Assembly (NCBI GenBank): GCA_964606385.1
Contig: CAZSFZ010000003.1
Location: 29,493 to 93,492, forward strand
Length of the DNA: 64,000 bases
Source of the DNA: an uncultured bacterium
Lineage (GTDB): Bacteria > Omnitrophota > Omnitrophia > Omnitrophales > Aquincolibacteriaceae
Reading direction: 5' to 3'
Shown here: in pieces, positions 6,801 to 46,191 of the stretch
How the letters are laid out: each line of letters starts with the position of its first letter
Position numbering within the stretch: position 1 is the first letter of the stretch
Translations under genes and position numbers: made by a program
The notes under the pieces: generated by a model
What the model saw: only the letters and a program-made list of their open reading frames with translations
Databases searched by the model: none
Told to the model about the DNA's origin: nothing

Positions 6801-6873
6801 GAGCGGCAAAAGTGGGCGCGGGGGATCCCAAAAGAAGAGCCCCTATCGCTATCATGGATATGATTTTTCTCAT
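823..6873 (-). CDS. Giant (2016 aa) autotransporter. It has an N-terminal signal peptide, a passenger built from autotransporter-associated beta-strand (PATR) repeats, and a C-terminal outer-membrane beta-barrel translocator.
   Basis: The signal peptide is MRKIISMIAIGALLLGSPAPTFAAP. There are dozens of GTLTLSGNNTYSGxTTIxGGTLxI repeats. The C-terminal ~280 aa is rich in aromatic/Gly residues and ends ...GTARYDF with a terminal Phe, which is the type Va beta-barrel signature. Long near-identical DNA repeats occur inside the gene. Confidence 0.85.
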   Translation of the reverse strand: MRKIISMIAIGALLLGSPAPTFAAPFTWDGGGGVADTNINTATNWSGDINPTFLGADTVTFGTAGLTAAINADANFLGITFNRAAAFAIASGGGILTVGASGITAAIPSATSRTYTISVASLVLGASQTWTTTNNGSGVATLTVSSIVSDGGNSYGITKEGTGTLILSGNNTYAGSTTISGGRLQIGAGGTTGSVVGDITNNATLAFNRSDDLAYERVISGSGDLIKAGAGMLTLNGNNTFSGGVTHNASGGRLNIGHVNALGSGTYTMSGSNSFDNTSGSALTIANTFTLSGGSPTFVGSNPLTINGATTISGNNRTITVTASTLTLAGAVGEDGSSRTLTKAGAGTLTLSGNNTFSGGVTHNTNGGLLNIGHVNALGSGTYTIGGATAVSFDNTSGGALTIANAFTMSGGSPTFMGSNPLTINGAATISGANRTITVNASTLALAGVVGDSGQNRKFTKAGDGILTLSGANTFTGGFQINAGTLNINNAQALGTAAGTFTIAGGTIDNTSGADITTIDYPMAWNGDFTFLGTKNLNLGAGAVTMSAGRQVTVNGGTLTVGGVIGGGAVGLTKSGAGTLHLSGTNTYTGTTTVSAGTLALSGATNNNIASSPTINIASGAALDVTGLAGTDDLILASGQTLKGSGTVSGNLTIGTGSVLSPGNSPGKLTSVGDVTYAGGGTYKWEINKVDGTQGSDPGWDWQNITSGSLNITATAGSKFTIDITGLNAASISGAVVNFDKYSNYTWTVASSDTSIAGFSASAFTLSTGNFTNNNPITGFFSNGYFGIQVTGHNLELTYTGALDGPATAWWTDGEGDHLWNTKTVGNTTNWDSTQSGGVDTGAIPASNTDVYFYADGAGSFATTLGQDFTIHSLTLQGGTATSAVSIAAGNTLTINAGGVTINAGAGALTMNNDVVLGAAQTWLNNSSNTFTVAGSVDNGGFTLTADGTGNTAVSGVISNGALIKDGAGTLVLSGNNTYAGGTTISGGTLQIGAGAASGSVLGNITNNASLVFNRSDALTYSGIISGVGTLTQSGAGTLTLAGLNTYSGATTINSGTLSISAGSGLGTAPGVATPGHLTFNGGTLEVSDTFTLNANRGIALTGAGTIDVDAAKTLTYSGIIAGGGSLTKTDTGTLTLGGANTFNGGLVINAGTVSATSNSSALGLGSVFLGATSGSADATLLGDNRTFANPITVQAGSAGNTLTIGNSGGTSAVFSGAMTLNNALTVNAGSPPGGSVQLSGALSGAGALTASGASVVILSGDNSAFSGGVTLSLGTTLNLNNATALGTGTFVINGGTLNRTGGSGATLTTHNAQLWNGDFTYTGSSQSLNLGTGAVTLGANRQVTVGGNTLTVGGSIGDSGSGYTLTKAGAGTLALSGINTFSGATTINAGTLSIAADSGLGAVPAAATPGHLTFNGGTLEASETFELHANRGIALTGAGTIDVDAAKTLTYNGIIAGAGSLTKTDTGTLVLGGVNTYSGATTITGGTIQINSSNAFGTGAGGVTNNATLDIGLITLNIGGAYTQGGAPSTLQAAIDGTASGSIVATGACTINAGDSLVLKVSSYIPENTSYTIVDGGGGAGIVAPAIIVVGNSRVTFIVTGTGSDLILKASRVGGGFAGDATNSNAEAVGLVLDAITNPTVDMSAVLNLLEGSSGAHVAAALDTMYPDVSAGLLEVSRALARQSFSMLSNRMGGARSAGFRNTGVSAGEILNGVGVWAQELGSHMRQDERKGIRGYKANLFGTTIGVDKLIDRHVRMGLAGSYGWARVNSKQPGSPSHDMDAFQAAVYGSFDSLNLCEARKLGKNSREAVRNQGDDFWYVDGMLAFTQNNYDSRREIWLTPANKRVAKADHYGQQYSTNFETGYTFTFEKTKNLEVTPFASLGYNFLYMNKYKEKGAGALNLTVDGEGYHQLEQGLGMKLAYPVVSKKMGTFIPSIKAAWLYDYIGDRFQTTASFAGGGLSFDTIGAKPAKNGMIFGAELAFLNKGNVTLTGNWDCEVKDQFLSNTYYGTARYDF

Positions 6874-7255: not shown

Positions 7256-8992
7256 TCAATCGTTCAAAATGCAGGTGCGGTTCTTGCCTTCGGCTTTGGC
7301 CTTGAGGAGGGCATCCTGCGCGCGTTCGACGACTTTCTGGGGATTTTTTTCATTCGGCTGAAGGACGGAAACCCCGGCGCTGACCTTGACGGAAAGGGTT
7401 TTGTCCCCGGATTTGAAGGCGGAACGCTCGATGGTTTTGCGGATCCTCTCGGCGACGCCAAAAGTCGCGGTCGCGAGGTTATAACCCACCAGTAACACGA
7501 TAAAAACGTCCTCGCCGTAACGGCCCGCGATGTCGGGCATCGCGCGCCCCTTGGTTCGGATCGAATCCAGGATCACGGAGGCCACGTGTTTTAGGACGTT
7601 GTCCGCCATTTTGGCGCCGTGCTCTTCATTGAACTTTTTGAAGTCATCAATATCGAGCATAATCACAGAGAAGGGCTTGTGGAATGTCCGGGAGTAATTG
7701 AGCGCCTGGGACAGGAAGGTATTTACATAGCGCATGACATAAAGCCCTGTCAGCTCATCCCGCACCGCCAGGCTCAGGAAATACATCCTTTCCTTGTACT
7801 CCTGGATCTTCACGACCGCGAAAGAGATCAGAAAATAAGCTGCGATCAGAAAAAGAGGCGCCACCACTCCCGTCCAGATCCCGGCGTAGGAAAAAAGCAG
7901 GAAGGAGGCCAGGACCCAGATCCCCGCCATTACGAAAGCCATCAGCAGCGAAAAAACGCTCCGGAACGGGATCATCACGCTCATCGTCAGTAGCGCCACC
8001 AGCACCAGCGCCGCCGCAAACACATAAGAGTGGATCTTCCGGATGTACTGCCCGGTCAGGAGGGTATTGATGATATTCCCCAAAGCGCCGATCCCCGGGC
8101 TCGCGGACTCGAGCGGCGTGATCTTGAAATCAGAGGCCGTCATCCCGATGACGCATATTTTATCCTTAAAATCCTTTTCGCCGAGCGGTGCGGCCTGTCC
8201 CTTGGAGACTAACGCGTAGCTATTGAGCACATCGACGAACGGGTAATAGCCGGAAGCGGCATTCCAGCGTTGCGCCCAGTGGATCATGAGGTTGTTCTGT
8301 TCATCGCGCGGAAAATCGCAATCCTGGATCGTCGGCACGGGTTTCCCCAGATAATCATAAGCCACCCGGATCCCGAGATGCGGCACAAGCTGCTGGTTCA
8401 ATTTGACGAACGGGAATATGCGGCGGACCACATGGTCGGGGTCCTGGTTGTAATTGATATGCCCGATCCCCTTGGCCTGTTCGCTATAGACCGGGGAGGA
8501 TTGATTCACGTAATAATAATTTTTGAAACCCTCGGATTCGAAGGAAATGGGAAGGTAAACATTCGAAGTTTTCTTGAACTCCTCAACAAGCGCTTGATCA
8601 TCCTCGGGGGTCTCGGCATCCTGAGTAAAAAAAAGATTGAACACGATGGCCTTCGCGCCCCATTCCCGGAGGATGCGTGCGATCGCGGCGTAATACCGCT
8701 TGGGCCACGGGAAAGGCCGGATGGCCTGCAGGCTGTTCCGGTCGATCCCGATATACACGACCGCAGGGTCGACCTTGGGAGAGGGCTGGTATTTCAGAAA
8801 TTGATCGTAGAAATAATTGTCCAGGGAACGGAAGAAGGACGACCCTGAAAAGTTAAGGCACAGGGCCAGCACGAGGATAAAGCCGAGGATCTGGATCGTG
8901 CGCAGGGGGGTGAAGAAAAGGACCAACTGTCTCAAGGGCTCGGTCGCGTAGCCCTTCCGTTTTTTAACCAGACCTGCCGGCGCTTTTTCCAT
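7256..8992 (-). CDS. CHASE2 sensor domain - TM - GGDEF-domain protein with a degenerate active-site motif (GEDVF), so likely a non-catalytic c-di-GMP-related receptor.
   Basis: The CHASE2 signature is IRPFPWPKRYYA. Transmembrane segments follow, then a C-terminal GGDEF fold (DIDDFKKFNEEHGAKMADNVL...GRYGEDVFIVLL). GEDVF replaces GG(D/E)EF and there is no RxxD I-site. The likely start is MEKAP at 8992 with a GGGAGG RBS; the track's longer N-terminal extension to 9328 is doubtful. Confidence 0.75.
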   Translation of the reverse strand: MEKAPAGLVKKRKGYATEPLRQLVLFFTPLRTIQILGFILVLALCLNFSGSSFFRSLDNYFYDQFLKYQPSPKVDPAVVYIGIDRNSLQAIRPFPWPKRYYAAIARILREWGAKAIVFNLFFTQDAETPEDDQALVEEFKKTSNVYLPISFESEGFKNYYYVNQSSPVYSEQAKGIGHINYNQDPDHVVRRIFPFVKLNQQLVPHLGIRVAYDYLGKPVPTIQDCDFPRDEQNNLMIHWAQRWNAASGYYPFVDVLNSYALVSKGQAAPLGEKDFKDKICVIGMTASDFKITPLESASPGIGALGNIINTLLTGQYIRKIHSYVFAAALVLVALLTMSVMIPFRSVFSLLMAFVMAGIWVLASFLLFSYAGIWTGVVAPLFLIAAYFLISFAVVKIQEYKERMYFLSLAVRDELTGLYVMRYVNTFLSQALNYSRTFHKPFSVIMLDIDDFKKFNEEHGAKMADNVLKHVASVILDSIRTKGRAMPDIAGRYGEDVFIVLLVGYNLATATFGVAERIRKTIERSAFKSGDKTLSVKVSAGVSVLQPNEKNPQKVVERAQDALLKAKAEGKNRTCILND

Positions 8993-9197
8993 AGCCTCCC
9001 CAAAACGATTATCCATATAAAGGAATTCGGGATAATTTACGACCATACTGGTCGAAAACTTATCTTTTTCCAAGAATTTTTTATTTTTAGAAAGTCCATG
9101 CTCTTTGCGAAGCTCTGGGGTATAATCCCGAACCTTTGAAGGGGTGCTGGTTTGCCACATCGCCCGCTTTCCTTTCCTTATGCATTGAGGAGCATCC

Positions 9198-9896
9198 ATG
9201 GCCATACAAGGCTGGTTTAAGTTCAAGAAAATAAGGCTTCTCCTGGCGTGGGGATCGATCCCTATTCTCATAATTTCGTCCCAGATGACCGACGCCACAT
9301 TCCGCTGGGGCGTGATCCTCTTGATCATCGGGGAATTGATCCGCTTCTGGGCGCTTGGCTATATGGAACGCAAGGGCGAAAAACTCGCCATGAGCGGGCC
9401 CTACGCCTTCGTTCGTAATCCTCTTTATGTCGGTAATTTTTTTCTGGGGCTCGGCGTTGCCGTGATCGTCTGGAACTGGGTGATCGGGATCATCTTCCTG
9501 GTCGGGTTCCTGGGGATCTACACCGGAACCATCCTGGGTGAAGAAAAACATCTGCGGGAGATGTTCGGAAAAACCTATGACGATTACTGTAAAAATGTCC
9601 CTTCGTTCCTCCCGCGCCTGACCCCTTATAGAGCTCCCGAGAAGGATTCGTTTCAGTGGGGCCGCATCATCAAGCACCATGAGTACATCACGGTGCTCGG
9701 GATCATCCTCATGACCATCCTTATTCACCTTTACGATGACCTTTTCCTTTCCAAAGAACCCGTGGCGCACGAGATCCCGCTTATCATCGCGGCGGTGGCC
9801 GTGATCCTCATCCTCGTGTTGGAGCGGGTGTTTGTCAGCAAGCTTCACATCACATTCTTCGAACGCCTGCGCGAAAAACACACGCCCAAAAAATAA
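9198..9896 (+). CDS. Isoprenylcysteine carboxyl methyltransferase / phospholipid methyltransferase (ICMT/PEMT) family membrane protein.
   Basis: Multi-TM protein with MSGPYAFVRNPLYVGNF, the ICMT/PEMT family motif. A GAGGA RBS lies upstream of the ATG. Confidence 0.6.
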   Translation: MAIQGWFKFKKIRLLLAWGSIPILIISSQMTDATFRWGVILLIIGELIRFWALGYMERKGEKLAMSGPYAFVRNPLYVGNFFLGLGVAVIVWNWVIGIIFLVGFLGIYTGTILGEEKHLREMFGKTYDDYCKNVPSFLPRLTPYRAPEKDSFQWGRIIKHHEYITVLGIILMTILIHLYDDLFLSKEPVAHEIPLIIAAVAVILILVLERVFVSKLHITFFERLREKHTPKK

Positions 9897-32605: not shown

Positions 32606-33421
32606 CTAGGCGATTTTTGTTTTGCGGGATCCGGAACGTTGGCGGTAGATGAGACCCGTCACAAAGACCGTGAGGCGCCTCGGGATCAAACGTTCCGAAT
32701 ACATCATGAGCTTATTCCAAAAACCGTAGATCGCGGAAGGCTGCCTTGTCTTCAGGAATTTCCTCAAAGCGAAACGCGCGACATCCGCCGCGGACGCGCT
32801 GAAAAACATCCGCTGTTTATCGATCCCGGCGTTCTGGTGAAAACGCGTGAGCGTATTCCCCGGACAAAGGCAAAACACACGCACGTCCCGGCCCCGGCAC
32901 TCTTCGGACAAGGCCTCGGAAAAGTGAAGGACAAAGGCCTTGGTCGCCGCGTAAACGGCAAGGTTCGGAAGCGGCTGGAATCCGGCCGTGGAGGCCACGT
33001 TCAGAATGCCGCCGTTCCTTCTCTCGATCATCCCCGGAAGGAAAAGCCATGTTAAATGCGTCAGGGCGTGGACATTCAGGTCCAGCATCGCCCCCGTTTC
33101 CTTAAAATTCGATTCCGCGAAGGGACCGTAAGACGCAAACCCCGCGTTATTGACCAGCACATCGACCGTGAGACCGCTCTTCTGGACCCAGGCAAAAAGC
33201 TCCAGCCGTTCTTCAAAATGCTCGAGATCCTCGGGAAATACATGAACGTTCACGCCGAAGCGGACACGTAGATCCTCGGCTTCCTGGTCCAAACGTTGGG
33301 CATTCCTCGATACAAGGATCAGATGCGCGCCTTGCGCCGCCAGTTCGCGCGCCATGGCCTTACCAATCCCGGAGGAAGCCCCAGTCACGAGCACCGTGAG
33401 GTCTTTGAAGGAAGTGATCAT
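32606..33421 (-). CDS. SDR family oxidoreductase.
   Basis: TGASSGIG (the glycine-rich NAD(P) motif) and YAATKAF (catalytic YxxxK). Confidence 0.85.
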   Translation of the reverse strand: MITSFKDLTVLVTGASSGIGKAMARELAAQGAHLILVSRNAQRLDQEAEDLRVRFGVNVHVFPEDLEHFEERLELFAWVQKSGLTVDVLVNNAGFASYGPFAESNFKETGAMLDLNVHALTHLTWLFLPGMIERRNGGILNVASTAGFQPLPNLAVYAATKAFVLHFSEALSEECRGRDVRVFCLCPGNTLTRFHQNAGIDKQRMFFSASAADVARFALRKFLKTRQPSAIYGFWNKLMMYSERLIPRRLTVFVTGLIYRQRSGSRKTKIA

Positions 33422-34017
33422 ACAGCGTGACGGCCGGCCATCGCGCGGGCGAGCGTGGCCTGGTCTGTGTATTCGATGTGACTGCCGACGGGGATCCCGC
33501 GCGCGAGCCGCGTCACTTTGACCTTGGAGGGCGCCAGGACCTTGGCAAGATAAAGCGCGGTCGTATCGCCTTCGGTATTGGGATTTGTCGCGAGAATGAC
33601 CTCACGGATCTTCTTCTGCTTCACGCGCTCGATCAGGTCCTGGATGCAGATCTGGTCCGGCCCGATGCCGTCCAACGGTGACAGCGCGCCGAGCAGGACG
33701 TGGTAGACGCCCGGATACCCCCCCGTCTTTTCGATCGCCGCGACATCTTTGGGATCTTCGACCACGCAGATGATCCCCGGGTCCCGCCCGGGATCCGAGC
33801 AGATATGGCAGAGTTTCTGGTCCGAGAAGTTGTGGCAGACGCTGCAGAAAATCACGCTTTCGCGGAGTTGTTTCACAAGTTCCCCGAGCGTGAGGGCGTC
33901 CTCTTTTTTCGTTTTGAGAAGATGGAAAACGATGCGCTCGGCCGACCGCTTTCCGATGCCGGGGAGCTTGGAAAGGGCTTCGACCAGCCGCGTCATGAGT
34001 TCCGAGTAGGCTTTCAT
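33418..34017 (-). CDS. recR: Recombination protein RecR.
   Basis: LPGIGKRSAERI (HhH), the C4 zinc finger CSVCHNFSDQKLCHIC, and Toprim (VVEDPKDV...ATNPNTEGD). Confidence 0.95.
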   Translation of the reverse strand: MKAYSELMTRLVEALSKLPGIGKRSAERIVFHLLKTKKEDALTLGELVKQLRESVIFCSVCHNFSDQKLCHICSDPGRDPGIICVVEDPKDVAAIEKTGGYPGVYHVLLGALSPLDGIGPDQICIQDLIERVKQKKIREVILATNPNTEGDTTALYLAKVLAPSKVKVTRLARGIPVGSHIEYTDQATLARAMAGRHAV

Positions 34018-34037: not shown

Positions 34038-35699
34038 TCAGCCCTTGCGGATCACTTTGGCCCCATCAAAGATCTCGAGGGCCTTTGAAACAATGTCCGG
34101 CACGTCTTCATCTTTCGCGGAAGCGGCCGGGGCGTCCGCATCCTGGGTCGTGCCATCACGTTCGGTCACAACGCACTGAACGCGGACTTTCATGCCCAGG
34201 GCCTGCGTGAAGGCTTCTTCGATCACCTGCTTATTAAGATCTTTTTCGAGCGTTTCTTTGTGGAACCGGAACTCCGAAGGAAGGCCCAGCACGATCACCG
34301 ATCCTTCCACCTCCGCGGGTTCGGCTTCCGCGAGATAAAGGCTCAGGGACATACGCTTGGCTTTCACAAGTTCTAGGACCTGCGGCCACGCTTTTTCAAC
34401 ATCGTTCAGCGTCAGGCCTTCACCGGGGGGCGTATGACTTGCTGAATTTTTAAGAGAAGCGACTGGAGTCTCAGCCGGCCGCGAGGGTGTCCCGGACTTA
34501 GAGAGGACCGGATCCTGTTTTAATGTTTTTTTTTCCACAACCGGAACCGGGGAACCGCTTTTTTGACCCGAGGAGGCGCTCTGGATGAGACCGTCCACGG
34601 ACTTCAGGCCTTCCAGATAAACAAGTTTCAGAAGGGCGGCCTCCACAAGCAGTTTGGGCGACGCGATCGGCCGGCGCAGCTGGACCTGAAGGTTCTGCAG
34701 GATCGAAAGAGCCAGGAGCAGCTCGCCTTGCGAAAAATCAGCCGTGAGTTTTTTCAGCTTGGAGATCATCTCAGAGCTTGCCTCGATCAGCCCTTCGACC
34801 TTGGACGCTGTCTTGAGGACCAACAGATGGCGGAAAACCTCAAAAAGGCCTTTCGCGAATTGCGCGAGGTCGGCGCCTTCCTCATAAAGTTTTTTCACAA
34901 GCCCGAAGATCTCATCCCCCTTTTTTCCCCGGATCGCCACAAGCACCGAAACATACATGTCCTCCGGAGCAAGTCCGAGGAGCGTCAGGACATCCTCCTC
35001 CTTGATCTTTCCTTCCGAAAAACTGGCGAGCTGGTCCAGAAGGCTTTCGGCGTCACGCAGCGCGCCTTCCGTGGCCTTCGCGATCATGAAAAGCACGTTC
35101 TTTTCGCATTTCAGCTTTTCTTTTTGCGCGATCTTTTCGAGTTTCTCGACCGCTTCCGGCACCGAGATCCTTTTAAACTGAAGCCGTTGGCAGCGCGACA
35201 GGATCGTGAGCGGCACCTTGTGGGATTCGGTCGTGGCGAAAATAAATTTCACGTGGGCCGGCGGTTCTTCGAGGGTCTTGAGGAGCGCGTTAAAGGCGTC
35301 CCCCGTCAAGGAATGGACTTCGTCAATGATGTAGATCTTGTAACGGCCGGAGGAGGGTTTGAATTTCACGTTCTCGCGAAGCGTCCGGATCTCTTCGATG
35401 CCGCGGTTCGACGCGCCGTCCACCTCGAGCACGTCCATGGAATTCCCCTGTTCGATCTCTTTGCAGGAATGGCATTTGCCGCAGGGTTTTTCTGTCGGGC
35501 CTTCCTTGCAATTCAGGGCCTTCGCGAGGATGCGCGCGGTGGAGGTCTTTCCCACGCCCCGGGGACCGGAAAAGAGGAAGCTTTGCGGCACGCGTTCCTG
35601 GCGGATCGCGTTCTTCAGGGTCGTGGTGATGGTTTCCTGCCCGACGATCTCTTCAAAGGTTTGCGGCCTGAATTTCCTGGCGAAGATCAGATATTCCAT
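34038..35699 (-). CDS. dnaX: DNA polymerase III subunit gamma/tau.
   Basis: The AAA+ clamp-loader is present: FSGPRGVGKTSTARILAKALNC. The Zn module is CGKCHSCKEI and the DEAD-like box is IIDEVHSL. The gene is 553 aa and recR follows 21 bp downstream. Confidence 0.95.
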   Translation of the reverse strand: MEYLIFARKFRPQTFEEIVGQETITTTLKNAIRQERVPQSFLFSGPRGVGKTSTARILAKALNCKEGPTEKPCGKCHSCKEIEQGNSMDVLEVDGASNRGIEEIRTLRENVKFKPSSGRYKIYIIDEVHSLTGDAFNALLKTLEEPPAHVKFIFATTESHKVPLTILSRCQRLQFKRISVPEAVEKLEKIAQKEKLKCEKNVLFMIAKATEGALRDAESLLDQLASFSEGKIKEEDVLTLLGLAPEDMYVSVLVAIRGKKGDEIFGLVKKLYEEGADLAQFAKGLFEVFRHLLVLKTASKVEGLIEASSEMISKLKKLTADFSQGELLLALSILQNLQVQLRRPIASPKLLVEAALLKLVYLEGLKSVDGLIQSASSGQKSGSPVPVVEKKTLKQDPVLSKSGTPSRPAETPVASLKNSASHTPPGEGLTLNDVEKAWPQVLELVKAKRMSLSLYLAEAEPAEVEGSVIVLGLPSEFRFHKETLEKDLNKQVIEEAFTQALGMKVRVQCVVTERDGTTQDADAPAASAKDEDVPDIVSKALEIFDGAKVIRKG

Positions 35700-35801
35700 A
35701 ACAGCTTTCTGGGAGAAAATTTAATAGTTCTCAGGGGATCGCGAGGCACCATGATGCGGGAAAAACATCCGGTTTTCAAGCAGTACTTCCCATCGGAATC
35801 C

Positions 35802-36425
35802 CTAATCCGTAAAGTGCAAGGTTTCCAAAGTGTGTTCAAAAAAGGGAAGGAACGTCTTGTACTGCTCGCGGGTCCCCACAAAACTAATTTGATAGTAGAA
35901 ATTTTTCCGGATCAGGAAAAGCTCCCTATTTAAGATCACCGCCCGTTGTTTTTCAGGAGCATATAGGGGAAGCAGGGAAACATACTGGTACTCGATGTAA
36001 GGGACTGTCCCGGCGCTGATCTGCTGATTGCCCTTTTTTATGAGCTCGAATTCCAAGAATCTTTTCTTTCCACTTAAAACGTTTTCCGCTATTTGGGCCC
36101 CGGTTTGGTTGAAAGGTGCCGATTTTTTTACAATAAAGATCGATACGGAAAACTTTGTCTTTGTGTCCTGAGGCCCTAACACGCTCACCATGTCAAATTT
36201 TCCGGAAAATTGACTGGTCGACATCTTCCATGTGGTGGGATATTCGAAACTAAAATCAAAAGGAGGATTTTTTTCATGAAAAGCTTTCCAGGAAGAGGGC
36301 GTGAAAGGAATCGATGTCTTTTGCGGAGACACTGTCGGCCGGTAAAGCGATAGCCACAGAACCAGAACGGCCCCCAATAAAATCATTCCTATTAGCAAAA
36401 ATGTTTTTTTGTTTTTAAAAGACAT
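35802..36425 (-). CDS. Hypothetical membrane-anchored protein (single N-terminal TM; possibly a PsbP/DUF1795-like fold).
   Basis: MSFKNKKTFLLIGMILLGAVLVLWL is the anchor. It contains ...FSFEYPTTWKMS. It lies in a lower-GC stretch. No confident family assignment. Confidence 0.35.
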   Translation of the reverse strand: MSFKNKKTFLLIGMILLGAVLVLWLSLYRPTVSPQKTSIPFTPSSWKAFHEKNPPFDFSFEYPTTWKMSTSQFSGKFDMVSVLGPQDTKTKFSVSIFIVKKSAPFNQTGAQIAENVLSGKKRFLEFELIKKGNQQISAGTVPYIEYQYVSLLPLYAPEKQRAVILNRELFLIRKNFYYQISFVGTREQYKTFLPFFEHTLETLHFTD

Positions 36426-36436
36426 AGAAGCCCCGC

Positions 36437-37987
36437 TTAGTAATCAAAAAGTTTTCCGTAATCTCCACGGCTTTTCAAATATTTTATCATTTCGTCATCA
36501 AACGGCTGAACGCCTTGCAGGGCCCCTTGATCATCCAGGATCAAAAACTGGTCCAGGTCGCTATCAAAAGAATCGTAGTCTTGTTGAAGCTTCTCGTCCA
36601 GCGATGACCGGCTCACGCTACTCCTCAGATCATACCAAGCCTGGGCATCCGCCACAAAAGCGCTATATTCCTGAAAAAGAGAATTGCTGGACCGCGGGCC
36701 CGTCCAACCTTCCGGCGCGACCCACCCGGCAGGCGGCAACCCGTACGCGGGAAGCGGGGCGTTCGGATCCGCTTGAATTCTCTCTTGATAATCAAGCAGG
36801 TCTTTGTCCCAAATATTATGAAGTATTTCGTGAGCCAAAAGCGATGAGGTCATTCCTTCGGGAGCTTCGGAGAATCTCTCATCGACGACGATCACACTCT
36901 GCACAACGTCATTGTTCTCCGAAATGGCATGCGTGTAGTAAGCATAAGCGCCATTGTTGCCGGGAGTTCCTCCATATAAAATTTTTGTGGTCTCCCCATC
37001 AAGAAATGTAATCTCATCCTCGCCGCTGGTAATGGCCTGACCGGGAAACTGAAACGCATAAGCGTCGATCGCATCCAGGGCATTCTTGCTCGAGGTAACC
37101 ATCTTGTCAAAGTCCGCATTATTCCCGGCCTTGCCGCAGACCTCGGAAGAGTATTCTGACTGATATTGGACTCCCTGGTGCTCAACTATCGTTTTTGCCC
37201 GGAAACAATAGGTGCGTCCATTCCTTCCTTGCTCCAGATCCCCTGCAAAATCGGAGCAAATCGTTTCCGAAGTTCCTCCTATATATTCCCAGTCGGAAGT
37301 AACCCCTTTATACTCTTCCCTCATTTGCATGATATACCCCAAAGCATCCGCATAGGGTGTAAAACTGAAATCTAACCATCCTCCCGTGTTGGAAAAAACC
37401 TCTAGATCCTGAGGCGCAAGCACCGTGTAATAAGTGCCGCCCCCTATCGTGTATGAGAATGAGCCCCCGGAACCTCCGCCCGAACCTCCGCCTCCAGAGC
37501 CGCCGCCGGACCCGCCGCCTTCAGAGCCGCTGCCGGAACCTCCTCCGGAACCGGCTCCTCCAGAACCCGAACCATAATTTCCGCTTGATCCTGAATTAAA
37601 ATTCACAAAACCATCTTTATTGATACCGATAGTATCAAGCCATTCGCTTAAAGGGCCGACAGGCGTTGCCAGCGCCAAAAAATCTACCTCATCCGCGTTG
37701 ATAATGCTGTAATCGTAAAAACCTCCTCCCACGATAAGCCCCAAGACAGATTCGATCCCCGACTCGTCCTCGGCGCCAACGAACTTCCCAAGCAATTCAT
37801 ACATACGCAACTCAGCGAGGCGTATGGAACCGAGGTTATTAACCGCCTCCGCCTTCTTGGATTGTTCGATCTGGTGGACCACCCGGGTGATCGCAATGGT
37901 CGCAAGAACCGCGATAATGACGATCGAAATCAACATTTCAAGAAGGGTCACCCCTTGCTGCTTTTTACGCGTAAAAATGGTTTTCAA
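36437..37987 (-). CDS. Type IV pilin-like (prepilin N-terminal methylation site) protein fused through a Gly/Ser-rich linker to a large C-terminal domain carrying an HExxH zinc-metallopeptidase-like motif.
   Basis: The N-terminus MKTIFTRKKQQG|VTLLEMLISIVIIAVLATIAI is a class III signal peptide, with Gly at -1 and Glu at +5. A short pilin-like region follows, then GSGSGGAGSGGGSGSGSEGGGSGGGSGGGGSGGGSGG, then a ~330-aa domain with LLAHEILHNIWD. No pilus assembly genes are in the window. Confidence 0.6.
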   Translation of the reverse strand: MKTIFTRKKQQGVTLLEMLISIVIIAVLATIAITRVVHQIEQSKKAEAVNNLGSIRLAELRMYELLGKFVGAEDESGIESVLGLIVGGGFYDYSIINADEVDFLALATPVGPLSEWLDTIGINKDGFVNFNSGSSGNYGSGSGGAGSGGGSGSGSEGGGSGGGSGGGGSGGGSGGSFSYTIGGGTYYTVLAPQDLEVFSNTGGWLDFSFTPYADALGYIMQMREEYKGVTSDWEYIGGTSETICSDFAGDLEQGRNGRTYCFRAKTIVEHQGVQYQSEYSSEVCGKAGNNADFDKMVTSSKNALDAIDAYAFQFPGQAITSGEDEITFLDGETTKILYGGTPGNNGAYAYYTHAISENNDVVQSVIVVDERFSEAPEGMTSSLLAHEILHNIWDKDLLDYQERIQADPNAPLPAYGLPPAGWVAPEGWTGPRSSNSLFQEYSAFVADAQAWYDLRSSVSRSSLDEKLQQDYDSFDSDLDQFLILDDQGALQGVQPFDDEMIKYLKSRGDYGKLFDY

Positions 37988-39273
37988 CGGATTTCTTCCC
38001 CTCGGATGGCTTCTTCAAGAATCTTTTTATTCTGGGCAGCTTCACGCAAGCCAGGGTCGATCTCAAGCGCCCGATTCCACTCTTTAAGAGCTTTATCCGC
38101 ATCATTTAAAAAAGCATGCGCAAGCCCCTTGTTCGCGTGCCCCTTAGCATAAAACTCGTTAGATGCCAACACCCTCCCAAAAACATCAAGGGCCTTACGG
38201 GGCTCATTCATTTTGATATAAAGGAGACCTAAATTATTTCCGGCAACCCAATCACGCGGATCTTTCTCAAGAATCTCCTCATAAATCACGGATGCTTTGG
38301 CGAGTTCTCCTTGCCCGGCAAGAAGTTGCGCCCGGACATGTTTTACATTTTTATTGCCCGGGTCACTTCCGGAGATCCGGCCAAGATATTCTTCAGCCTC
38401 TCTGAAATTATTCTCTTTTAAAAGGACTTTTGCCATCCCGATCTGGGCATCGGCATTTTGGGGCTCTTTTTTTAGCACCATCCCGTAGTAGCGTTTGGAC
38501 TCATCATAGTCCCCCGTCAATCGGTAAAGTTCAGCCAAATTTAAGAAAGGCTTTGAAAAAACCACGGGGCCGGACGTCAAGGGAAGAAGAATTTTCTTCG
38601 CTTCCTCAAAACGTCTAAGCTGGATAAGCGCAGCGGCCTGATTATTTAGAAAAGGAGTTTCGTTGGCCCGCTTAAGGGAGCGGTAAAGATCGTATGCTTT
38701 TTGATATTGCCCCAAGGCGTAATAACCGTTCGCCACACCCGATATCGCCACTTCATCGTCGGGTCTCAACTTCAGATACTCCTGGAAAACCTCCACGGCC
38801 CGCGGAAAATTCTTGACGGTAAGGTACAGATTGGCCAGATTCAGAAGGATTTCAGGCTTTTGGGATTCCCCTTCCAAGGCTTTCAAAAAACTTTCCTCCG
38901 CCTTTTGAGCCTCGCCGGCAGAAGCATACGCGCTTCCCAGATTCGCGTAAATCACCGTATTGATAGAGTCAGAACCCAGAGATTGCTCGAAGCTTTCCGC
39001 GGCTTCCTTAAAACGGCCGCTCTTATACATCTCGACGCCTTTTGCAAAATAAACCGCTTTCCCGCGGACCTCCACCAGTTCTTCCTTGGAACCGCGCCAG
39101 ACCATTTTTATATCAGATTTTGGAATCTTAACTTTTCCTCCGGGCGCCTCAACAATCACAAATTGGTCGTCTTCCCTTAAGACCTTGGCTTCAATCGCAT
39201 TACCATTTTTGAGTTGAATGATATCCGCAAGGGCTAAGGGAGAAATCGTGGCAAAGCAGAACAAAAAAAGCAT
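37984..39273 (-). CDS. TPR repeat protein with an N-terminal signal peptide.
   Basis: MLFLFCFATISPLALA, then many TPR units through the C-terminus. The track's longer ORF (to 39585) reads through the tRNA genes and is rejected. The start codon abuts a tRNA-like 3' end. Confidence 0.6.
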   Translation of the reverse strand: MLFLFCFATISPLALADIIQLKNGNAIEAKVLREDDQFVIVEAPGGKVKIPKSDIKMVWRGSKEELVEVRGKAVYFAKGVEMYKSGRFKEAAESFEQSLGSDSINTVIYANLGSAYASAGEAQKAEESFLKALEGESQKPEILLNLANLYLTVKNFPRAVEVFQEYLKLRPDDEVAISGVANGYYALGQYQKAYDLYRSLKRANETPFLNNQAAALIQLRRFEEAKKILLPLTSGPVVFSKPFLNLAELYRLTGDYDESKRYYGMVLKKEPQNADAQIGMAKVLLKENNFREAEEYLGRISGSDPGNKNVKHVRAQLLAGQGELAKASVIYEEILEKDPRDWVAGNNLGLLYIKMNEPRKALDVFGRVLASNEFYAKGHANKGLAHAFLNDADKALKEWNRALEIDPGLREAAQNKKILEEAIRGEEIR

Positions 39274-39443
39274 GGCGGAGAGGGGGAGATGCGGCTCCCT
39301 TCGCTTCGTTGCGGGTAGGCCACCCGCCCCGCTCTTATGACATGAGTCATAAGCGCCTGCGGGGCTCCCTTCGAATCTCCCGTCCAAAGAACGGGAGCCC
39401 GAACCGTCATGATCTCCCGTTTTTTTTGATTGAATAGAAAACA
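39273..39443 (-). other. tRNA-Ser-derived structured element or pseudo-tRNA. It repeats the 18-nt 3' terminus of tRNA-Ser (tggcggagagggggagat, including CCA) at 39273-39290 and contains nested hairpins.
   Basis: There is an exact 18-bp direct repeat with 39444-39461. Between the copies the following hairpins occur: ACGGGAG-16nt-CTCCCGT, CTCCCGT-TCTTTGG-ACGGGAG (mutually exclusive with the first), GCGGGT-aggcc-ACCCGC, and CCCCGC..CTTATGAC-atga-GTCATAAG..GCGGGG. The region reads like a T-arm (GGGAG-ATTCGAA..TCTCCC) interrupted by about 80 nt. It has no standard cloverleaf. Confidence 0.3.
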
Positions 39444-39533
39444 TGGCGGAGAGGGGGAGATTCGAACTCCCGATACGCTTGCGCGTATAACAGTTTTCGA
39501 GACTGCCGCATTCGGCCACTCTGCCACCTCTCC
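39444..39533 (-). tRNA. tRNA-Ser (anticodon CGA), class II with a long variable arm. CCA is encoded.
   Basis: The sequence on the minus strand is GGAGAGGTGGCAGAGTGGCCGAATGCGGCAGTCTCGAAAACTGTTATACGCGCAAGCGTATCGGGAGTTCGAATCTCCCCCTCTCCGCCA. The acceptor is GGAGAGG/CCTCTCC, the anticodon loop is CTCGAAA, the variable-arm hairpin is ATACGC-GCAA-GCGTAT, and the T-arm is GGGAG-TTCGAAT-CTCCC. Confidence 0.9.
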
Positions 39534-39726
39534 GTGGTATGGAGGAAAATGCTCGGACTTTGCAGGATCCGCGTTCCGGATACAAAAGCGTTTAGAGTCT
39601 ATGTATTTCTTTAAGGTTGGTCAAGGCGAGAGAATAGGGCTCTCCGCGGCTTCCGCCATTATCGTAAGATGCCCCAAAACGATGAATCTAATTTACATTT
39701 CGGAGGCCCTTCCTTAAAATCATGCC

Positions 39727-44418: not shown

Positions 44419-46191
44419 TCACAAGGTTTCCATGCAAACACGGTTCTTCCCCGACGCCTTGGCCCGGTAGAGGGCCGCATCGGCGCGATGAACCATCGGA
44501 TCGGGAACATTTTCCCCGGGACGGCGCACGGCAACCCCCAGACTGATCGTCACCCGGATCGGCTTCCCCTCCCATTCGAACCGGGTCTCCTCGACTTTCT
44601 TTCGGATCCTTTCGGCCGCGATCTCGGCCGCTTCGCGCAGGCCGGCCTTTCGGAGCATGATAATGAATTCCTCGCCCCCGTAACGGGCCGCGAAATCGAT
44701 CTCGCGGAAGGCCCGGCGTTTCCGGATAAAAGCGAGAAGGATCGCCGCGACTTTTTTAAGCACCATGTCCCCCGCCGGATGTCCGTAGGTGTCGTTGATC
44801 TGCTTGAAGTTGTCGATATCCATCAGGATGACGGATAAAGGCTGGTTTCGCACGCTCGCTTCCCGCACGATATGATTCATGATCAAACGGAAATGCCGGA
44901 TCACATAGAGCTCCGTCAGACCGTCCCGCGTCGCGAGATGGAAAAGCTGGGATTTTTCTCGAATCGCCGTCGCCTGGACATAGATAGCCGAAAAAACAAA
45001 CAGGCTGAGCATGAGCAGGACGGGGTAGACCACATAGAACCAGACGTGCCATTTCATCAAAGCAAAAAAGCAGAAAACGATCCATCCTGCGACGAGCAAA
45101 AGCCCGGCGACAAGAGACCAGATGCCGCTCAAAGTCACGAACAGAAAAATCGCCAGAAAACCGCTCCCCAGAAGACACAGGAAATTCCCCGTGGCCGAAA
45201 CGGGGCGGATCCAGTTGCCCGTTAATGCCGCGTTCAGCACCTGAGCGTAAATACCGATCTGGGGGTATGAAATATTTAGCGGGGTCACCTTAAGCTCCGC
45301 GGCTCCTGGCGCCGTTGGTCCGACAAGACAGATCTTCCCCGCGAGCGCGGCCGGATCAATGAGGGGACGCATTCCTTTCTGGATCGCGTAAAAACTGTGG
45401 ATCAGGTCCGCGTAGTTGTAGCGCACGAATCCACGGTCCCAGACCCGGCTCCACGGGATGAGCATTTTCCCCTGCGCATCTTCATATTTTTTCCATTCTT
45501 GCGGCGCCGGAACGGCTAGCTGCATATGGTCAAAAGCCACGCGAAGCGGAAGAAAATGATGGCCTTCACCCCCCTCGTCAGCAAAAGGTTCGAACCGGCG
45601 CAAGATCCCGTCCGGATCCGGGCCAAGGAAACTGTGTCCTGTTACTTTTACCTCTTTTTCGAATTCCGGCATGGCGTGGACCCAGACCTTCTGTCCCTCG
45701 CTTTTTTCCAGTACCACCGGCATGCCATGCACCCAGAATTTCTTTTCTTTTTTGGGCTTCAGTTCCACTGGAATATAAATGGGAGTTTTGATCTTCGCGA
45801 GCGATTGAGCCAGGTCCTGATCATTCTTGGGATCCGTCGGTTCCGAAAGATCGAGATCGAAAATGATCGCGGCCGCCTTCCATTCGTTTAAAAGGCGCGC
45901 CATGATGGCGTGATAGCTTCTCGGCCAAGGCCATGCCCCGATCTCATCCAAGGCGGTTTCCGAGATTTCGATCAGCGCGATGTCCGGGTGGGCTTGCCCC
46001 CAAGCGATATGTTTGAGGAAACTATCACGGGCAAGATCTTCCATCCGGTCTAACTTGCGGGTTCCCAAAAGAAGCGCGAAAACAATGATGATGAGAAAGT
46101 AGGTCCCGAACCGGAGCCAGTCTTGGTAGGAGCGCGAGCGGGTGCGCGTAAAAAGTTTTTCGGTCGCTTCGATCGGTTCGTGGGCCGTCAT
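44419..46191 (-). CDS. CHASE2 sensor - TM - GGDEF diguanylate cyclase (canonical GGEEF with an RxxD I-site).
   Basis: The CHASE2 signature is IGAWPWPRSYHA. After the TM segments come REIDFAARYGGEEFIIML and the D-I-D metal site (LMDIDNFKQIND). It is a paralog of 7256-8992. Confidence 0.85.
   Translation of the reverse strand: MTAHEPIEATEKLFTRTRSRSYQDWLRFGTYFLIIIVFALLLGTRKLDRMEDLARDSFLKHIAWGQAHPDIALIEISETALDEIGAWPWPRSYHAIMARLLNEWKAAAIIFDLDLSEPTDPKNDQDLAQSLAKIKTPIYIPVELKPKKEKKFWVHGMPVVLEKSEGQKVWVHAMPEFEKEVKVTGHSFLGPDPDGILRRFEPFADEGGEGHHFLPLRVAFDHMQLAVPAPQEWKKYEDAQGKMLIPWSRVWDRGFVRYNYADLIHSFYAIQKGMRPLIDPAALAGKICLVGPTAPGAAELKVTPLNISYPQIGIYAQVLNAALTGNWIRPVSATGNFLCLLGSGFLAIFLFVTLSGIWSLVAGLLLVAGWIVFCFFALMKWHVWFYVVYPVLLMLSLFVFSAIYVQATAIREKSQLFHLATRDGLTELYVIRHFRLIMNHIVREASVRNQPLSVILMDIDNFKQINDTYGHPAGDMVLKKVAAILLAFIRKRRAFREIDFAARYGGEEFIIMLRKAGLREAAEIAAERIRKKVEETRFEWEGKPIRVTISLGVAVRRPGENVPDPMVHRADAALYRAKASGKNRVCMETL

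What the first reader, a model, noticed from the sequence alone, without database searches (positions are those of the whole stretch)
35800..39443. Lower-GC islet next to tRNA-Ser encoding a pilin-anchored HExxH protein, a TPR protein and a small membrane protein
Three co-directional genes (35802-36425, 36437-37987, 37984-39273) sit in a stretch that is visibly AT-richer, roughly 45-50% GC by eye, than the ~60% GC flanks (dnaX, waaL). The islet lies immediately 3' of tRNA-Ser(CGA) and ends at a partial direct repeat of the tRNA 3' end. The central gene has a bona fide type IV prepilin leader and cleavage/methylation site (KQQG|VTLLEM, Glu+5). A 37-aa Gly/Ser linker follows, then a ~330-aa globular domain carrying HEILH (HExxH). 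The architecture predicts a pilus- or pseudopilus-displayed metalloprotease/adhesin. No cognate pilus assembly, integrase or transposase genes are present in the window. That leaves the origin and the partner machinery open.
Basis: partly seen in the sequence, partly recalled or inferred. Interest (0 to 1): 0.75.

Follow-up and report, generated by a model that had tools for sequence, protein, structure and literature searches.

The report
Pilin-anchored zinc protease gene cassette
An uncultured Omnitrophota bacterium carries a conserved, fast-evolving gene set for a probable zinc protease on a type IV pilin stalk plus a membrane-tethered partner protein; it is an inherited part of the chromosome, not a recently inserted island.

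Summary
The three co-directional genes, the adjacent tRNA-Ser(CGA), the prepilin motif and the HEILH motif are all real. All lie on the minus strand.

The "islet" reading fails. The order tRNA-Ser, TPR, pilin-HExxH, small gene, dnaX, recR recurs in other Omnitrophota species whose DnaX is 75-84% identical. The tRNA 3'-end repeat brackets only a 171-nt spacer upstream of the TPR gene, not the cassette. The GC dip is real (GC3 0.51-0.53 against about 0.68). It recurs in orthologous cassettes, so it is a property of these genes.

The exhaustive search found 293 representatives. Some carry T4-type and some Flp/TadE-like N-termini. In 11 of 11 contexts a PsbP-like, membrane-tethered partner gene follows.

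Best reading: a modular pilin displaying a metallopeptidase, with a chaperone or inhibitor partner. The assembly machinery lies outside the window. This is a new variant of the known modular-pilin theme. Activity and display are untested.

The parts
39444..39533 (-). tRNA-Ser(CGA). It lies immediately upstream of the cassette and is probably co-transcribed with it.
   Evidence: ARAGORN and Rfam tRNA at 56 bits. The only sigma-70-like promoter match upstream of the cassette on this strand is at 39624-39596, before the tRNA.
39273..39443 (-). 171-nt spacer that ends in a second copy of the tRNA 3' end. The repeat copies are at 39267-39293 and 39438-39464. It looks like a small insertion or remnant at the tRNA 3' end.
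   Evidence: Repeat of 27 nt at 93%, none expected by chance. The rest of the spacer is unrelated to the tRNA or its upstream region. In L004, L006 and L007 the TPR ORF follows the tRNA with no spacer. The spacer is strongly structured as RNA (z = -2.8). No Rfam family reaches threshold.
37984..39273 (-). Secreted TPR protein of 429 aa. It has a short signal peptide (MLFLFCFATISPLALA|D), a small N-terminal beta-rich domain and about 10 TPR repeats. Its stop codon overlaps the pilin start (TTGA).
   Evidence: Pfam TPR_2 E 4.6e-40. NCBIfam PrsT, PilW and BepA TPR regions all score below their cutoffs. Orthologs are 44-47% identical in L004-L010. A TPR gene precedes the pilin gene in most contexts but not all.
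37598..37987 (-). Type IV pilin module of the central protein, residues 1-130. It comprises the leader MKTIFTRKKQQG, the cleavage site G|V, Glu+5, a long alpha-1 helix and a small beta-sheet head. The start codon is TTG.
   Evidence: Pfam N_methyl E 1.2e-8 and TIGR02532. The AlphaFold model has helix 15-66 plus a beta-sheet. Foldseek matches Thermus PilA4 (6xxd_A, TM 0.65 on the target).
37433..37597 (-). Gly/Ser linker, residues about 131-185, encoded by imperfect 12/15-nt DNA repeats.
   Evidence: pLDDT below 50 over residues 131-185. Direct-repeat family D1 at 37467-37567. 60 of 70 T4-type family members have a window that is at least 70% Gly+Ser.
37118..37432 (-). FnIII-like beta-sandwich, residues about 186-290. 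It is an optional module, absent from the shorter orthologs.
   Evidence: Beta-strands at 193-285 in the model. The top Foldseek PDB hits are cytokine-receptor FnIII domains. The module is absent in P0005-P0007 and in the 376-aa L006 ortholog.
36437..37117 (-). C-terminal zincin-like (gluzincin-type) domain, residues 291-516. HEILH is at 36818-36832, Glu440 at 36668-36670, Trp451 follows, and the protein ends in ...LFDY.
35802..36425 (-). Partner protein of 207 aa with an N-terminal membrane anchor and a PsbP/Mog1-like domain. A member of this family follows the pilin-zincin gene in every context examined.
   Evidence: Pfam PsbP_2 E 1.3e-4 for the window protein, below the gathering score; the best family member scores 2.9e-10. 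Homologs lie directly downstream in 11 of 11 contexts, three of them with lipoboxes.

Best explanation
The region is a chromosomal, vertically inherited, fast-evolving operon of an Omnitrophota bacterium. Its core is a two-gene module.

Gene 1 encodes a modular type IV pilin. It has a prepilin signal, a pilin head, a flexible Gly/Ser tether of about 50 aa and, here, an extra FnIII-like spacer. At the C-terminus it carries a gluzincin-type zinc metallopeptidase domain of the uncharacterised DUF6782-like superfamily.

Gene 2 encodes a membrane-anchored or lipoprotein PsbP/Mog1-like protein.

In this lineage a secreted TPR protein is encoded first. The operon appears to be transcribed from the promoter of the tRNA-Ser(CGA) gene that abuts it.

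Inferred mechanism:
1. The prepilin is inserted into the inner membrane and cleaved after Gly12 by a prepilin peptidase.
2. It is incorporated, probably as a low-abundance or tip subunit, into a type IV filament (T4aP or Tad) encoded elsewhere in the genome.
3. The tethered peptidase is thereby exposed outside the cell, where it cleaves external protein targets such as host or prey envelope or matrix proteins.
4. The PsbP-like partner faces the periplasm. It is proposed to hold, chaperone or inhibit the peptidase module before export.
5. The TPR protein is proposed as an accessory docking or assembly factor.

Shown here: the gene architecture, motif conservation, fold class, the obligate gene pairing, the synteny and the composition.

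Inferred only: proteolytic activity, filament incorporation and the roles of the partner and the TPR protein.
For: - Pilin module: N_methyl and TIGR02532 score above cutoff. The model has a long alpha-1 helix plus a beta head that matches Thermus PilA4. Most homologs keep G-1, F+1, E+5, and also G14 and P22 (my reading of the N-terminal sequences printed).
- Peptidase module: H386, E387, H390, E440 and W451 are invariant or nearly invariant across 23 sequences that share 14-28% identity with the window domain. 166 of 169 retrieved proteins keep HExxH.
- Sequence relatives: the profile hits minigluzincin MJ1213 at E 0.005 and M48 proteases at E 0.13. hhalign gives 99.7% (E 1e-25) to a group whose members match Pfam DUF6782 above cutoff and Tox-MPTase4 weakly.
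- Different anchors: the same module is joined through Gly/Ser linkers to T4-type prepilin N-termini (70 proteins). It is also joined to Flp/TadE-like N-termini, with the pattern G|xxxxEY (about 13 proteins). This argues that presentation by type IV filament systems is the selected feature.
- Obligate partner: a homologous PsbP-like gene lies directly downstream in 11 of 11 contexts. These include a Flp-type member (L015) and contexts with no TPR gene (L012, L013).
- Vertical inheritance: synteny holds in L006, L009, L004 and L007 and in the P0007 contig.
- Fast evolution: the TPR protein is 44-47% identical, the pilin 35-57% and the partner 26-31%. DnaX and RecR are 75-89% identical in the same genome pairs. 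The FnIII module is gained or lost between close species.
- Machinery elsewhere: Omnitrophota commonly encode T4aP and Tad systems (PMC10066038). L009 has TadB/TadC-like genes a few kb upstream of its tRNA-Ser.
- Precedent: modular pilins are an established concept (PMC8179133).
Against: - No pilus machinery or prepilin peptidase lies in the window or next to the cassette in most contexts, so filament incorporation is not shown.
- The window protein itself does not reach any Pfam peptidase threshold.
- It has V+1, A14 and T22 instead of the commoner F+1, G14 and P22.
- The partner is periplasm-facing and the TPR protein is periplasmic. Both fit equally well with a complex that never leaves the periplasm.
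- The cassette sits among housekeeping genes, which is compatible with an envelope-maintenance role.
Confidence: 0.55

Rival explanations
1. A horizontally acquired genomic islet, integrated at the 3' end of tRNA-Ser(CGA) and bounded by an att-like direct repeat.
For: - GC3 of the three genes is 0.51-0.53, against about 0.68 for neighbours.
- A tRNA gene is adjacent, and a 27-nt repeat of its 3' end exists.
- The tRNA-Ser(cga) site is an insertion hot spot in relatives. L004 has a tyrosine integrase abutting it. L009 has two GDSL-lipase genes inserted between the tRNA and the TPR gene.
- More distant members carry the cassette in other genomic contexts.
Against: - The repeat copies are 171 nt apart and both lie upstream of the TPR start. 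No copy lies at the dnaX end.
- Identical synteny from tRNA-Ser to tRNA-Gly is found in L006 and L009 (DnaX 84% and 75% identical), with partial synteny in L004, L007 and the P0007 contig.
- The window has no integrase or transposase.
- Orthologous cassettes also have lower GC3 than their flanks in L006, L001 and L002.
- PHROGs and PADLOC give nothing specific.
- Ancient acquisition, or allele replacement by recombination at a fixed locus, cannot be excluded.
Confidence: 0.1
2. A periplasmic envelope-maintenance protease complex tethered to the inner membrane. In this view the prepilin-type N-terminus serves only as a membrane anchor, as with a pseudopilin that never polymerises. The zincin works in the periplasm together with the TPR protein and the membrane-anchored PsbP-like protein. 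This would be functionally analogous to the M48-TPR protease BepA.
For: - The profile is weakly similar to M48/BepA and minigluzincins.
- A TPR protein is co-encoded. Its TPR region matches the BepA model at E 1.5e-12, below cutoff.
- The partner is periplasm-facing, either anchored or a lipoprotein.
- The cassette is conserved next to dnaX, recR and lipid A genes, with no pilus genes nearby.
Against: - The same module is fused independently to T4-type and Flp/TadE-like class III signals rather than to ordinary TM anchors or lipoboxes.
- Glu+5, which matters for filament assembly, is conserved.
- A 45-55-aa Gly/Ser tether plus an optional FnIII spacer suggests reach beyond a surface.
- The very fast divergence is unusual for a housekeeping quality-control enzyme.
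- The TPR gene is missing in some contexts.
- All TPR matches are generic and below family cutoffs.
Confidence: 0.25
3. A contact-dependent toxin and immunity pair. The pilin-tethered zincin is an antagonistic effector used against prey, host or competitor cells. The downstream PsbP-like membrane protein is its cognate immunity protein or inhibitor.
For: - Distant family members match Tox-MPTase4, a zincin of polymorphic toxins (E 7e-4 to 3e-3, below cutoff). Some carry unrelated N-terminal carrier regions, which is a polymorphic-toxin-like trait.
- The partner gene is strictly adjacent downstream in 11 of 11 contexts.
- Both genes diverge very fast and have atypical GC3.
- PsbP/MOG1-like genes are known neighbours of toxin genes and fusion partners of immunity domains (PMC3482391).
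- Omnitrophota are inferred predators or parasites that rely on T4aP and Tad pili (PMC10066038).
Against: - There is one copy per genome at a fixed housekeeping locus. No arrays of alternative toxin tips or orphan immunity genes were seen.
- The Tox-MPTase4 matches are below threshold.
- In T6SS systems the PsbP/Mog1-like proteins are adaptors or chaperones rather than immunity proteins (PMC3482391).
- Nothing was tested about toxicity.
Confidence: 0.15

Closest known systems
Modular type IV pilins, such as Streptococcus sanguinis PilB (pilin + vWA) and PilC (pilin + lectin). Predicted pilin-peptidase architectures IPR012902-S74 and IPR012902-M26 were catalogued by Raynaud et al. 2021 (PMC8179133).
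   Same: A class III signal peptide and small pilin module are joined by a linker to a functional module, which the filament is predicted to present. Peptidase modules on pilins have been predicted before from InterPro architectures.
   Different: - The module here is a DUF6782-like gluzincin, not S74, M26, vWA or a lectin.
- The linker is an unusually long Gly/Ser tract, with an optional FnIII spacer.
- The gene is always paired with a PsbP-like membrane protein.
- Relatives carry the same module on Flp/TadE-like N-termini.
- No member has been studied experimentally.
Pfam DUF6782 (putative metallopeptidase family) and Tox-MPTase4 of polymorphic toxin systems (Zhang et al. 2012, PMC3482391).
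   Same: The HExxH zincin core, the downstream conserved Glu in the 'SIDQEY' motif and the C-terminal 'LPEY' are all shared. hhalign gives 99.7% between the pilin-fused group and a DUF6782-matching group.
   Different: - The window protein does not itself reach the Pfam DUF6782 threshold.
- The Tox-MPTase4 similarity is weak and is seen only in distant members.
- Known Tox-MPTase4 toxins ride on RHS, T6SS or T7SS carriers, not on pilins.
- DUF6782 has no literature in the searched library.
Minigluzincins (proabylysin; projannalysin/selecase MJ1213) and the M48/M56 catalytic domains (BepA, Ste24, BlaR1).
   Different: - The domain here is larger, about 225 aa.
- The TPR repeats are on a separate polypeptide.
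- Whether the conserved C-terminal tail acts as an autoinhibitory plug, as in minigluzincin zymogens, is unknown. That comparison rests on my own knowledge of López-Pelegrín et al. 2013 and was not tested.
DUF1795/Eag and other PsbP/Mog1-like proteins encoded next to secreted toxins (T6SS adaptors or chaperones).
   Same: A PsbP/Mog1-like protein is encoded directly beside a secreted protein that has a hydrophobic N-terminal helix.
   Different: The partner here has its own N-terminal membrane anchor or lipobox, so it is extracytoplasmic. Eag chaperones are cytoplasmic. Membership in DUF1795 was not detected; only PsbP_2 and PsbP matches were found.

Membership tests
Type IV pilin / pseudopilin (class III signal peptide proteins) | N-terminal prepilin cleavage/methylation motif: short basic leader ending in Gly, a hydrophobic stretch of about 20 aa, and Glu at +5 | tested here: met
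   The motif is MKTIFTRKKQQG|VTLLEMLISIVIIAVLATIAI. Pfam N_methyl scores 34.6 bits (cutoff 21.2). TIGR02532 scores 26.9 bits (cutoff 16.3). The motif is conserved in homologs.
Type IV pilin / pseudopilin (class III signal peptide proteins) | Lollipop fold: an extended alpha-1 helix of about 50 aa packed on a beta-sheet head | tested here: met
   The AlphaFold model has helix 15-66 followed by strands at 91-128, with pLDDT about 65-78. Foldseek matches Thermus PilA4, 6xxd_A, with probability 1.00 and TM 0.65 on the target. The model is of moderate confidence only.
Type IV pilin / pseudopilin (class III signal peptide proteins) | Processing by a prepilin peptidase and polymerisation into a filament by a T4P, T2SS or Tad machine | not testable with these tools
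   No machinery genes lie in the 64-kb window. The rest of the genome is not available. The phylum commonly has T4aP and Tad systems (PMC10066038).
Specific pilin equivalogs (GspG, PilA, ComGC, PilV, etc.) | Full-length match above the NCBIfam cutoff | tested here: not met
   Only the N-terminal 25-55 residues match. GspG scores 26.8 bits against a cutoff of 88.85, and Myxococcus PilA 25.7 against 400.
Zincin metallopeptidases, gluzincin type | HExxH on one helix plus a third Glu ligand on a downstream helix, conserved across the family | tested here: met
   H386, E387, H390 and E440 are invariant or nearly invariant. They lie on helices 377-406 and 436-457 of the model. 166 of 169 relatives keep HExxH.
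Zincin metallopeptidases, gluzincin type | Zincin fold: a mixed beta-sheet, the active-site helix and the Glu helix | tested here: inconclusive
   [not shown]
Zincin metallopeptidases, gluzincin type | Zinc binding and peptide-bond hydrolysis | not testable with these tools
   This needs biochemistry.
Pfam DUF6782 (putative metallopeptidase family) | Match to PF20573 at or above the gathering score of 27 bits | tested here: not met
   The window protein has no DUF6782 hit at E up to 0.1. The distant relative P0062 scores 32.9 bits. Profile-profile comparison links the two groups at 99.7% probability. This indicates a superfamily relationship, not direct Pfam membership.
M48 peptidases / BepA | Match to Peptidase_M48 or the BepA model above cutoff; protease and TPR on one chain | tested here: not met
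   There is no Pfam M48 hit. The profile against PDB gives E 0.13 for BepA and Ste24. The TPR protein matches the BepA model only in its TPR region, at 47 bits against a cutoff of 570.
PsbP/Mog1-like superfamily (partner protein) | Match to PsbP-family models | tested here: inconclusive
   The window protein scores 22.5 bits on PsbP_2, below the gathering score of 27. Three of 7 orthologs match PsbP_2, the best at E 2.9e-10, and three match PsbP. P0195 and the L012 neighbour carry precomputed PF18933 hits. No structure was predicted.
tRNA-targeted genomic island | Island bounded by the tRNA gene and a direct repeat of its 3' end, with an integrase, and absent from related genomes | tested here: not met
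   The repeat copies are 171 nt apart, upstream of the first gene. No integrase is present. The cassette is present at the same site in L004, L006, L007 and L009.
Pilus-associated TPR proteins (PilF/PilW, Tgl, TadD) | Equivalog-level match, lipobox | tested here: not met
   PilW scores 91.9 bits against a cutoff of 154, and Tgl 52 against 225. The protein has a signal peptide with an ALA|D site and no lipobox Cys at the cleavage site. Only generic TPR similarity was found.

The most novel reading that the evidence does not exclude
The cassette may be a weapon delivered by a type IV filament. In this reading Omnitrophota nanobacteria display a tethered DUF6782-like zinc protease on T4a or Tad pili to breach or remodel the envelope of host or prey cells. 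The obligate PsbP-like membrane partner would serve as the cognate inhibitor or immunity protein that protects the producer's periplasm. That would make this a new delivery route for polymorphic-toxin-type metallopeptidases.

A second unusual feature may ride along. In several species the operon's first ORF can start, by canonical rules, only inside the tRNA-Ser gene. If so, tRNA maturation and operon translation would be mutually exclusive fates of one transcript.
Probability: 0.15. Interest if true: 0.85.

Novelty: new variant of a known kind. Interest (0 to 1): 0.55.

Why it matters
Type IV filaments are known to adhere, pull, take up DNA and secrete. An enzymatically active protease presented on a pilin has only been predicted from database architectures and never studied.

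This work defines a coherent and previously undescribed family:
- It has at least 293 representative clusters at 50% identity.
- A conserved gluzincin module is tethered by a long flexible linker to T4-type or Flp/TadE-like pilin N-termini.
- It is always paired with a PsbP-like membrane protein.

The family is concentrated, as far as names are available, in Omnitrophota. This is an uncultured phylum of ultra-small, probably predatory or parasitic bacteria whose pili are thought to be central to host interaction.

If the protease is displayed on pili, it offers a concrete, testable molecule for how these cells attack or feed on partners. It would also give Pfam DUF6782 its first functional context.

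The work also corrects the 'genomic island' reading. Low GC together with a neighbouring tRNA here marks a hypervariable but ancestral surface-protein locus.

Tried and rejected
- Recent-island hypothesis: rejected on synteny, repeat geometry and shared low GC3.
- Spacer as a tandem duplicate: I tested whether the 171-nt spacer duplicates the tRNA plus its upstream region. Only the last 20-27 nt match. No Rfam family reaches threshold there.
- Full-length fold search: it returned only FnIII domains and a pilin, nothing for the C-terminal domain. A domain-only model was needed.
- AFDB50 fold search: the library is unavailable.
- First genome-collection scan with the C-domain alignment: it failed because no stretch was conserved enough. 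It was repeated with a closer full-length alignment.
- PHROGs and PADLOC: no phage or defence signal beyond the generic pilin N-terminus and TPR matches.
- Direct Pfam and NCBIfam peptidase assignment for the window protein: none.
- 'Standalone' HExxH proteins of about 180 aa: at least one (P0015) looks like a fragment of a split pilin-zincin gene. A 98-aa ORF lies directly upstream, and the locus is syntenic with L002. Standalone versions should therefore not be over-interpreted.
- Source genome: only two contigs of about 4 kb from sequencing-run assemblies (Logan source) were returned for the window's own partner protein. The rest of the genome could not be searched for pilB, pilC, pilD or tad genes.
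- Literature searches for DUF6782, PF18933 and metalloprotease pilins found nothing specific.

Full report
**1. What is in the sequence**

All features lie on the minus strand. From upstream to downstream they are:
- tRNA-Ser(cga) at 39444-39533.
- A 171-nt spacer.
- A 429-aa TPR protein at 37984-39273.
- A 516-aa pilin-like protein at 36437-37987. Its TTG start overlaps the TPR stop.
- A 207-aa protein at 35802-36425.
- dnaX at 34038-35699 and recR at 33418-34017.

The central protein starts MKTIFTRKKQQG|VTLLEMLISIVIIAVLATIAI. It matches the prepilin N-methylation models above their cutoffs: Pfam N_methyl at E 1.2e-8 and TIGR02532. HEILH is at residues 386-390.

About 45 ORFs of the window were scanned with Pfam. 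They are housekeeping genes plus one 2016-aa autotransporter. None is a pilus-assembly, integrase or transposase gene. A six-frame motif scan finds no second prepilin motif.

**2. Composition**

The window averages 54.5% GC, and the flanking genes 52-60%. The three genes have 42.6%, 50.6% and 49.3% GC. Their GC3 is 0.51-0.53, against about 0.62-0.78 for neighbouring genes.

It is not a sign of recent transfer. Orthologous cassettes in other genomes are also poorer in GC3 than their flanks:
- L006: 0.47-0.55 against about 0.60.
- L001: 0.64-0.67 against 0.75-0.80.
- L002: 0.52-0.54 against 0.60-0.73.

**3. The tRNA repeat**

A 27-nt copy of the tRNA 3' end, 93% identical with a 20-nt exact core, does exist. 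None is expected by chance.

Both copies (39438-39464 and 39267-39293) lie upstream of the first gene, 171 nt apart. The second copy overlaps the TPR start codon. No copy lies at the dnaX end. The repeat therefore brackets a 151-nt insert and not the cassette.

The insert is unrelated to the tRNA or its upstream region. It is strongly structured as RNA (z = -2.8) and matches no Rfam family.

In L004, L006 and L007 the TPR ORF follows the tRNA with no spacer. The window's spacer is therefore a secondary small insertion, or the remnant of one, at the tRNA 3' end.

That site is a hot spot in relatives. L009 has two GDSL-lipase genes between the tRNA and the TPR gene. L004 has a tyrosine integrase abutting the tRNA.

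**4. Organism and synteny**

A scan of one genome per GTDB species returned eight loci. Six are titled Candidatus Omnitrophota or Omnitrophica MAGs. The other two, L005 and L006, are titled 'uncultured bacterium'.

- L006 has the order tRNA-Ser(cga) - TPR - pilin - small - dnaX - recR - SDR - tRNA-Gly(tcc), as in the window. L009 has the same order but no SDR match, and two extra genes lie between its tRNA-Ser and TPR gene.
- L004 and L007 share tRNA-Ser(cga) - TPR - pilin.
- The P0007 contig has the cassette followed by dnaX.

The cassette is therefore ancestral at this locus.

It evolves far faster than its neighbours. Against L006 and L009, DnaX is 84% and 75% identical and RecR 89% and 86%. 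The TPR protein is only 47% and 44% identical and the small protein 27% and 26%. The pilin module is 57% and 52% identical. Its C-terminal domain is about 35% identical against L006 and gave no detectable match in L009.

Domain content changes too. The L006 ortholog (376 aa) lacks the FnIII-like module.

**5. Anatomy of the central protein**

The full-length AlphaFold model (pLDDT 65) shows four parts:
- A pilin lollipop: helix 15-66 plus a small beta-sheet. Foldseek matches Thermus PilA4.
- A disordered Gly/Ser linker at residues 131-185, encoded by imperfect 12/15-nt repeats.
- An FnIII-like beta-sandwich at about residues 190-285. Foldseek matches FnIII domains.
- An alpha/beta C-terminal domain.

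The C-terminal domain was modelled alone with a 23-sequence alignment. It reaches pLDDT 82 and pTM 0.82.

H386, E387, H390, E440 and W451 are invariant or nearly so in sequences that share only 14-28% identity with the window domain. HExxH lies in one long helix and E440 in the next, which is the gluzincin arrangement.

The family profile hits the minigluzincin MJ1213 at E 0.005 and M48 proteases at E 0.13 among PDB sequences.

**6. The wider family**

The word-indexed search found only 12 relatives. The exhaustive HMM search with the C-domain profile found 293 representatives at E up to 1e-3, of which 79 are at E up to 1e-10.

Among the 169 sequences inspected:
- 166 keep HExxH.
- 70 carry a T4-type prepilin motif, and 60 of those also have a strong Gly/Ser linker.
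- About 13 carry Flp/TadE-like N-termini instead, with the pattern G|xxxxEY (for example P0104, P0106, P0113, P0119, P0151), again with Gly/Ser linkers.
- Others are short, or carry unrelated N-terminal regions.
- 102 end in Tyr or Phe, typically as ...LPEY.

The Flp/TadE call rests on motif inspection only. Pfam did not confirm it.

Distant members match Pfam DUF6782, a 'putative metallopeptidase family'. P0062 scores 32.9 bits against a gathering score of 27. They also match Tox-MPTase4 weakly. A profile-profile comparison of the pilin-fused group with the DUF6782-like group gives 99.7% probability (E 1e-25) over the whole domain, including the C-terminal LPEY.

No paper in the searched library mentions DUF6782.

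**7. The partners**

The gene directly downstream of the pilin-zincin gene is homologous in 11 of 11 contexts examined. These include the Flp-type member L015 and two contexts with no upstream TPR gene (L012, L013).

These proteins are about 160-210 aa long. Seven have an N-terminal membrane anchor and three have a lipobox. The 161-aa L014 copy shows no N-terminal anchor in the alignment. They match PsbP_2 and PsbP (best member E 2.9e-10), although the window protein scores below the gathering threshold.

The invariant unit is therefore a two-gene module: the anchored zincin plus an extracytoplasmic PsbP/Mog1-like partner.

The TPR gene is common but not universal. All its matches to named TPR families (PrsT, PilW, Tgl, BepA) fall below their cutoffs.

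**8. Mechanism**

Modular pilins are an accepted concept. A functional module grafted by a linker onto a pilin is presented by the filament. Peptidase modules (S74, M26) have been predicted from InterPro architectures but not studied (PMC8179133).

Omnitrophota commonly encode T4aP and Tad systems and are inferred to be predators or parasites (PMC10066038). L009 has TadB/TadC-like genes just upstream of its tRNA-Ser.

The best-supported reading is that this protein is a prepilin-peptidase-processed modular pilin. It would expose a tethered metallopeptidase on a type IV filament that is assembled by machinery encoded elsewhere. The PsbP-like partner would act in the periplasm as a holder, chaperone or inhibitor. 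The fast divergence and the module gain and loss fit a surface-exposed protein engaged in conflict or interaction.

Nothing here shows processing, polymerisation, zinc binding or proteolysis. Those steps are inferred.

The main rival is a BepA-like periplasmic complex that uses the pilin helix only as an anchor. A toxin and immunity reading is also possible.

**9. Verdict**

The pilin-HExxH interpretation is supported and extended. The island interpretation is not supported.

The thing itself is a new variant of the modular-pilin theme. It has a novel zincin module, an obligate partner and a phylum-level distribution. It is moderately interesting and experimentally tractable.

Noticed in passing
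L004:6596-6800, L006:2405-2560, L007:5415-5580; window 39273-39585 (-): In three related genomes the TPR ORF follows tRNA-Ser with no spacer. The only canonical in-frame start codon between the upstream stop and the mature N-terminus lies inside the tRNA gene itself (a GTG in the D-arm region; L007 also has a TTG 3 nt upstream of the tRNA). If that start is used, the basic n-region of the signal peptide (...YTRKRIGSSN / ...YPRKGIVGSN) would be encoded by the tRNA sequence on the same strand. tRNA processing and translation of the operon's first gene would then be mutually exclusive. In the window, the duplicated junction supplies an ATG whose A is the last base of the copied CCA.
   Followed up: partly
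window 39273-39443 (-): The 151-nt insert between the two copies of the tRNA 3' end is highly structured as RNA (MFE -75 kcal/mol, z = -2.8). It also contains an inverted copy of 12 nt of the tRNA T-arm (39370-39381 against 39455-39466). It could be the scar of an excised tRNA-targeting element or a small structured RNA. No Rfam family matches.
   Followed up: partly
L004:5481-6584 and L004:100-5500: A tyrosine integrase gene (Phage_integrase, E 8e-34) ends 12 nt before tRNA-Ser(cga). Low-GC genes (39-43% GC) with zinc-ribbon-like N-termini precede it. This is probably an integrated element on the 5' side of the same tRNA that precedes the cassette.
   Followed up: partly
L009:304-2100 and L009:4085-6553: Two T2SSF-domain (TadB/TadC-like) genes lie 2-3.6 kb upstream of tRNA-Ser. 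Two GDSL-lipase genes are inserted between the tRNA and the TPR gene. This is a possible physical link between a Tad locus and the cassette in one species.
   Followed up: partly
window 823-6873 (-): A 2016-aa autotransporter with 10 PATR repeats and a C-terminal beta-barrel domain. Like the cassette, it has lower GC3 (0.58) than its housekeeping neighbours. It is another surface protein with atypical composition.
   Followed up: partly
window 7256-9328 (-) and 44419-46191 (-): Two paralogous CHASE2-GGDEF diguanylate cyclases lie in one 64-kb window. A CHASE2-GGDEF gene also lies upstream of the cassette on the P0007 contig.
   Followed up: no
Family level (P0001-P0170): The very C-terminus of the zincin domain is conserved as ...LP(E/D)Y-COOH. 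102 of 169 proteins end in Tyr or Phe. The tail is modelled with high confidence. In minigluzincin zymogens a C-terminal tail blocks the active site (my recollection, not checked here), so this tail could be an autoinhibitory plug or a recognition tag.
   Followed up: partly
P0001, P0002, P0004 compared with window 36437-37987 and L008:7995-9545: Public gene calls for several family members start downstream of the true start, at an internal GTG or ATG inside the hydrophobic helix. This removes the prepilin motif, so the precomputed annotations miss the N_methyl domain. The family is therefore under-recognised as pilin-like in databases.
   Followed up: yes
L014:5708-6561: The 'standalone' 186-aa HExxH protein P0015 is preceded by an overlapping 98-aa ORF, and the locus is syntenic with the full-length L002 locus. 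It is probably a pilin-zincin gene split in the repetitive Gly/Ser-linker region, either by a frameshift or by an assembly error.
   Followed up: partly
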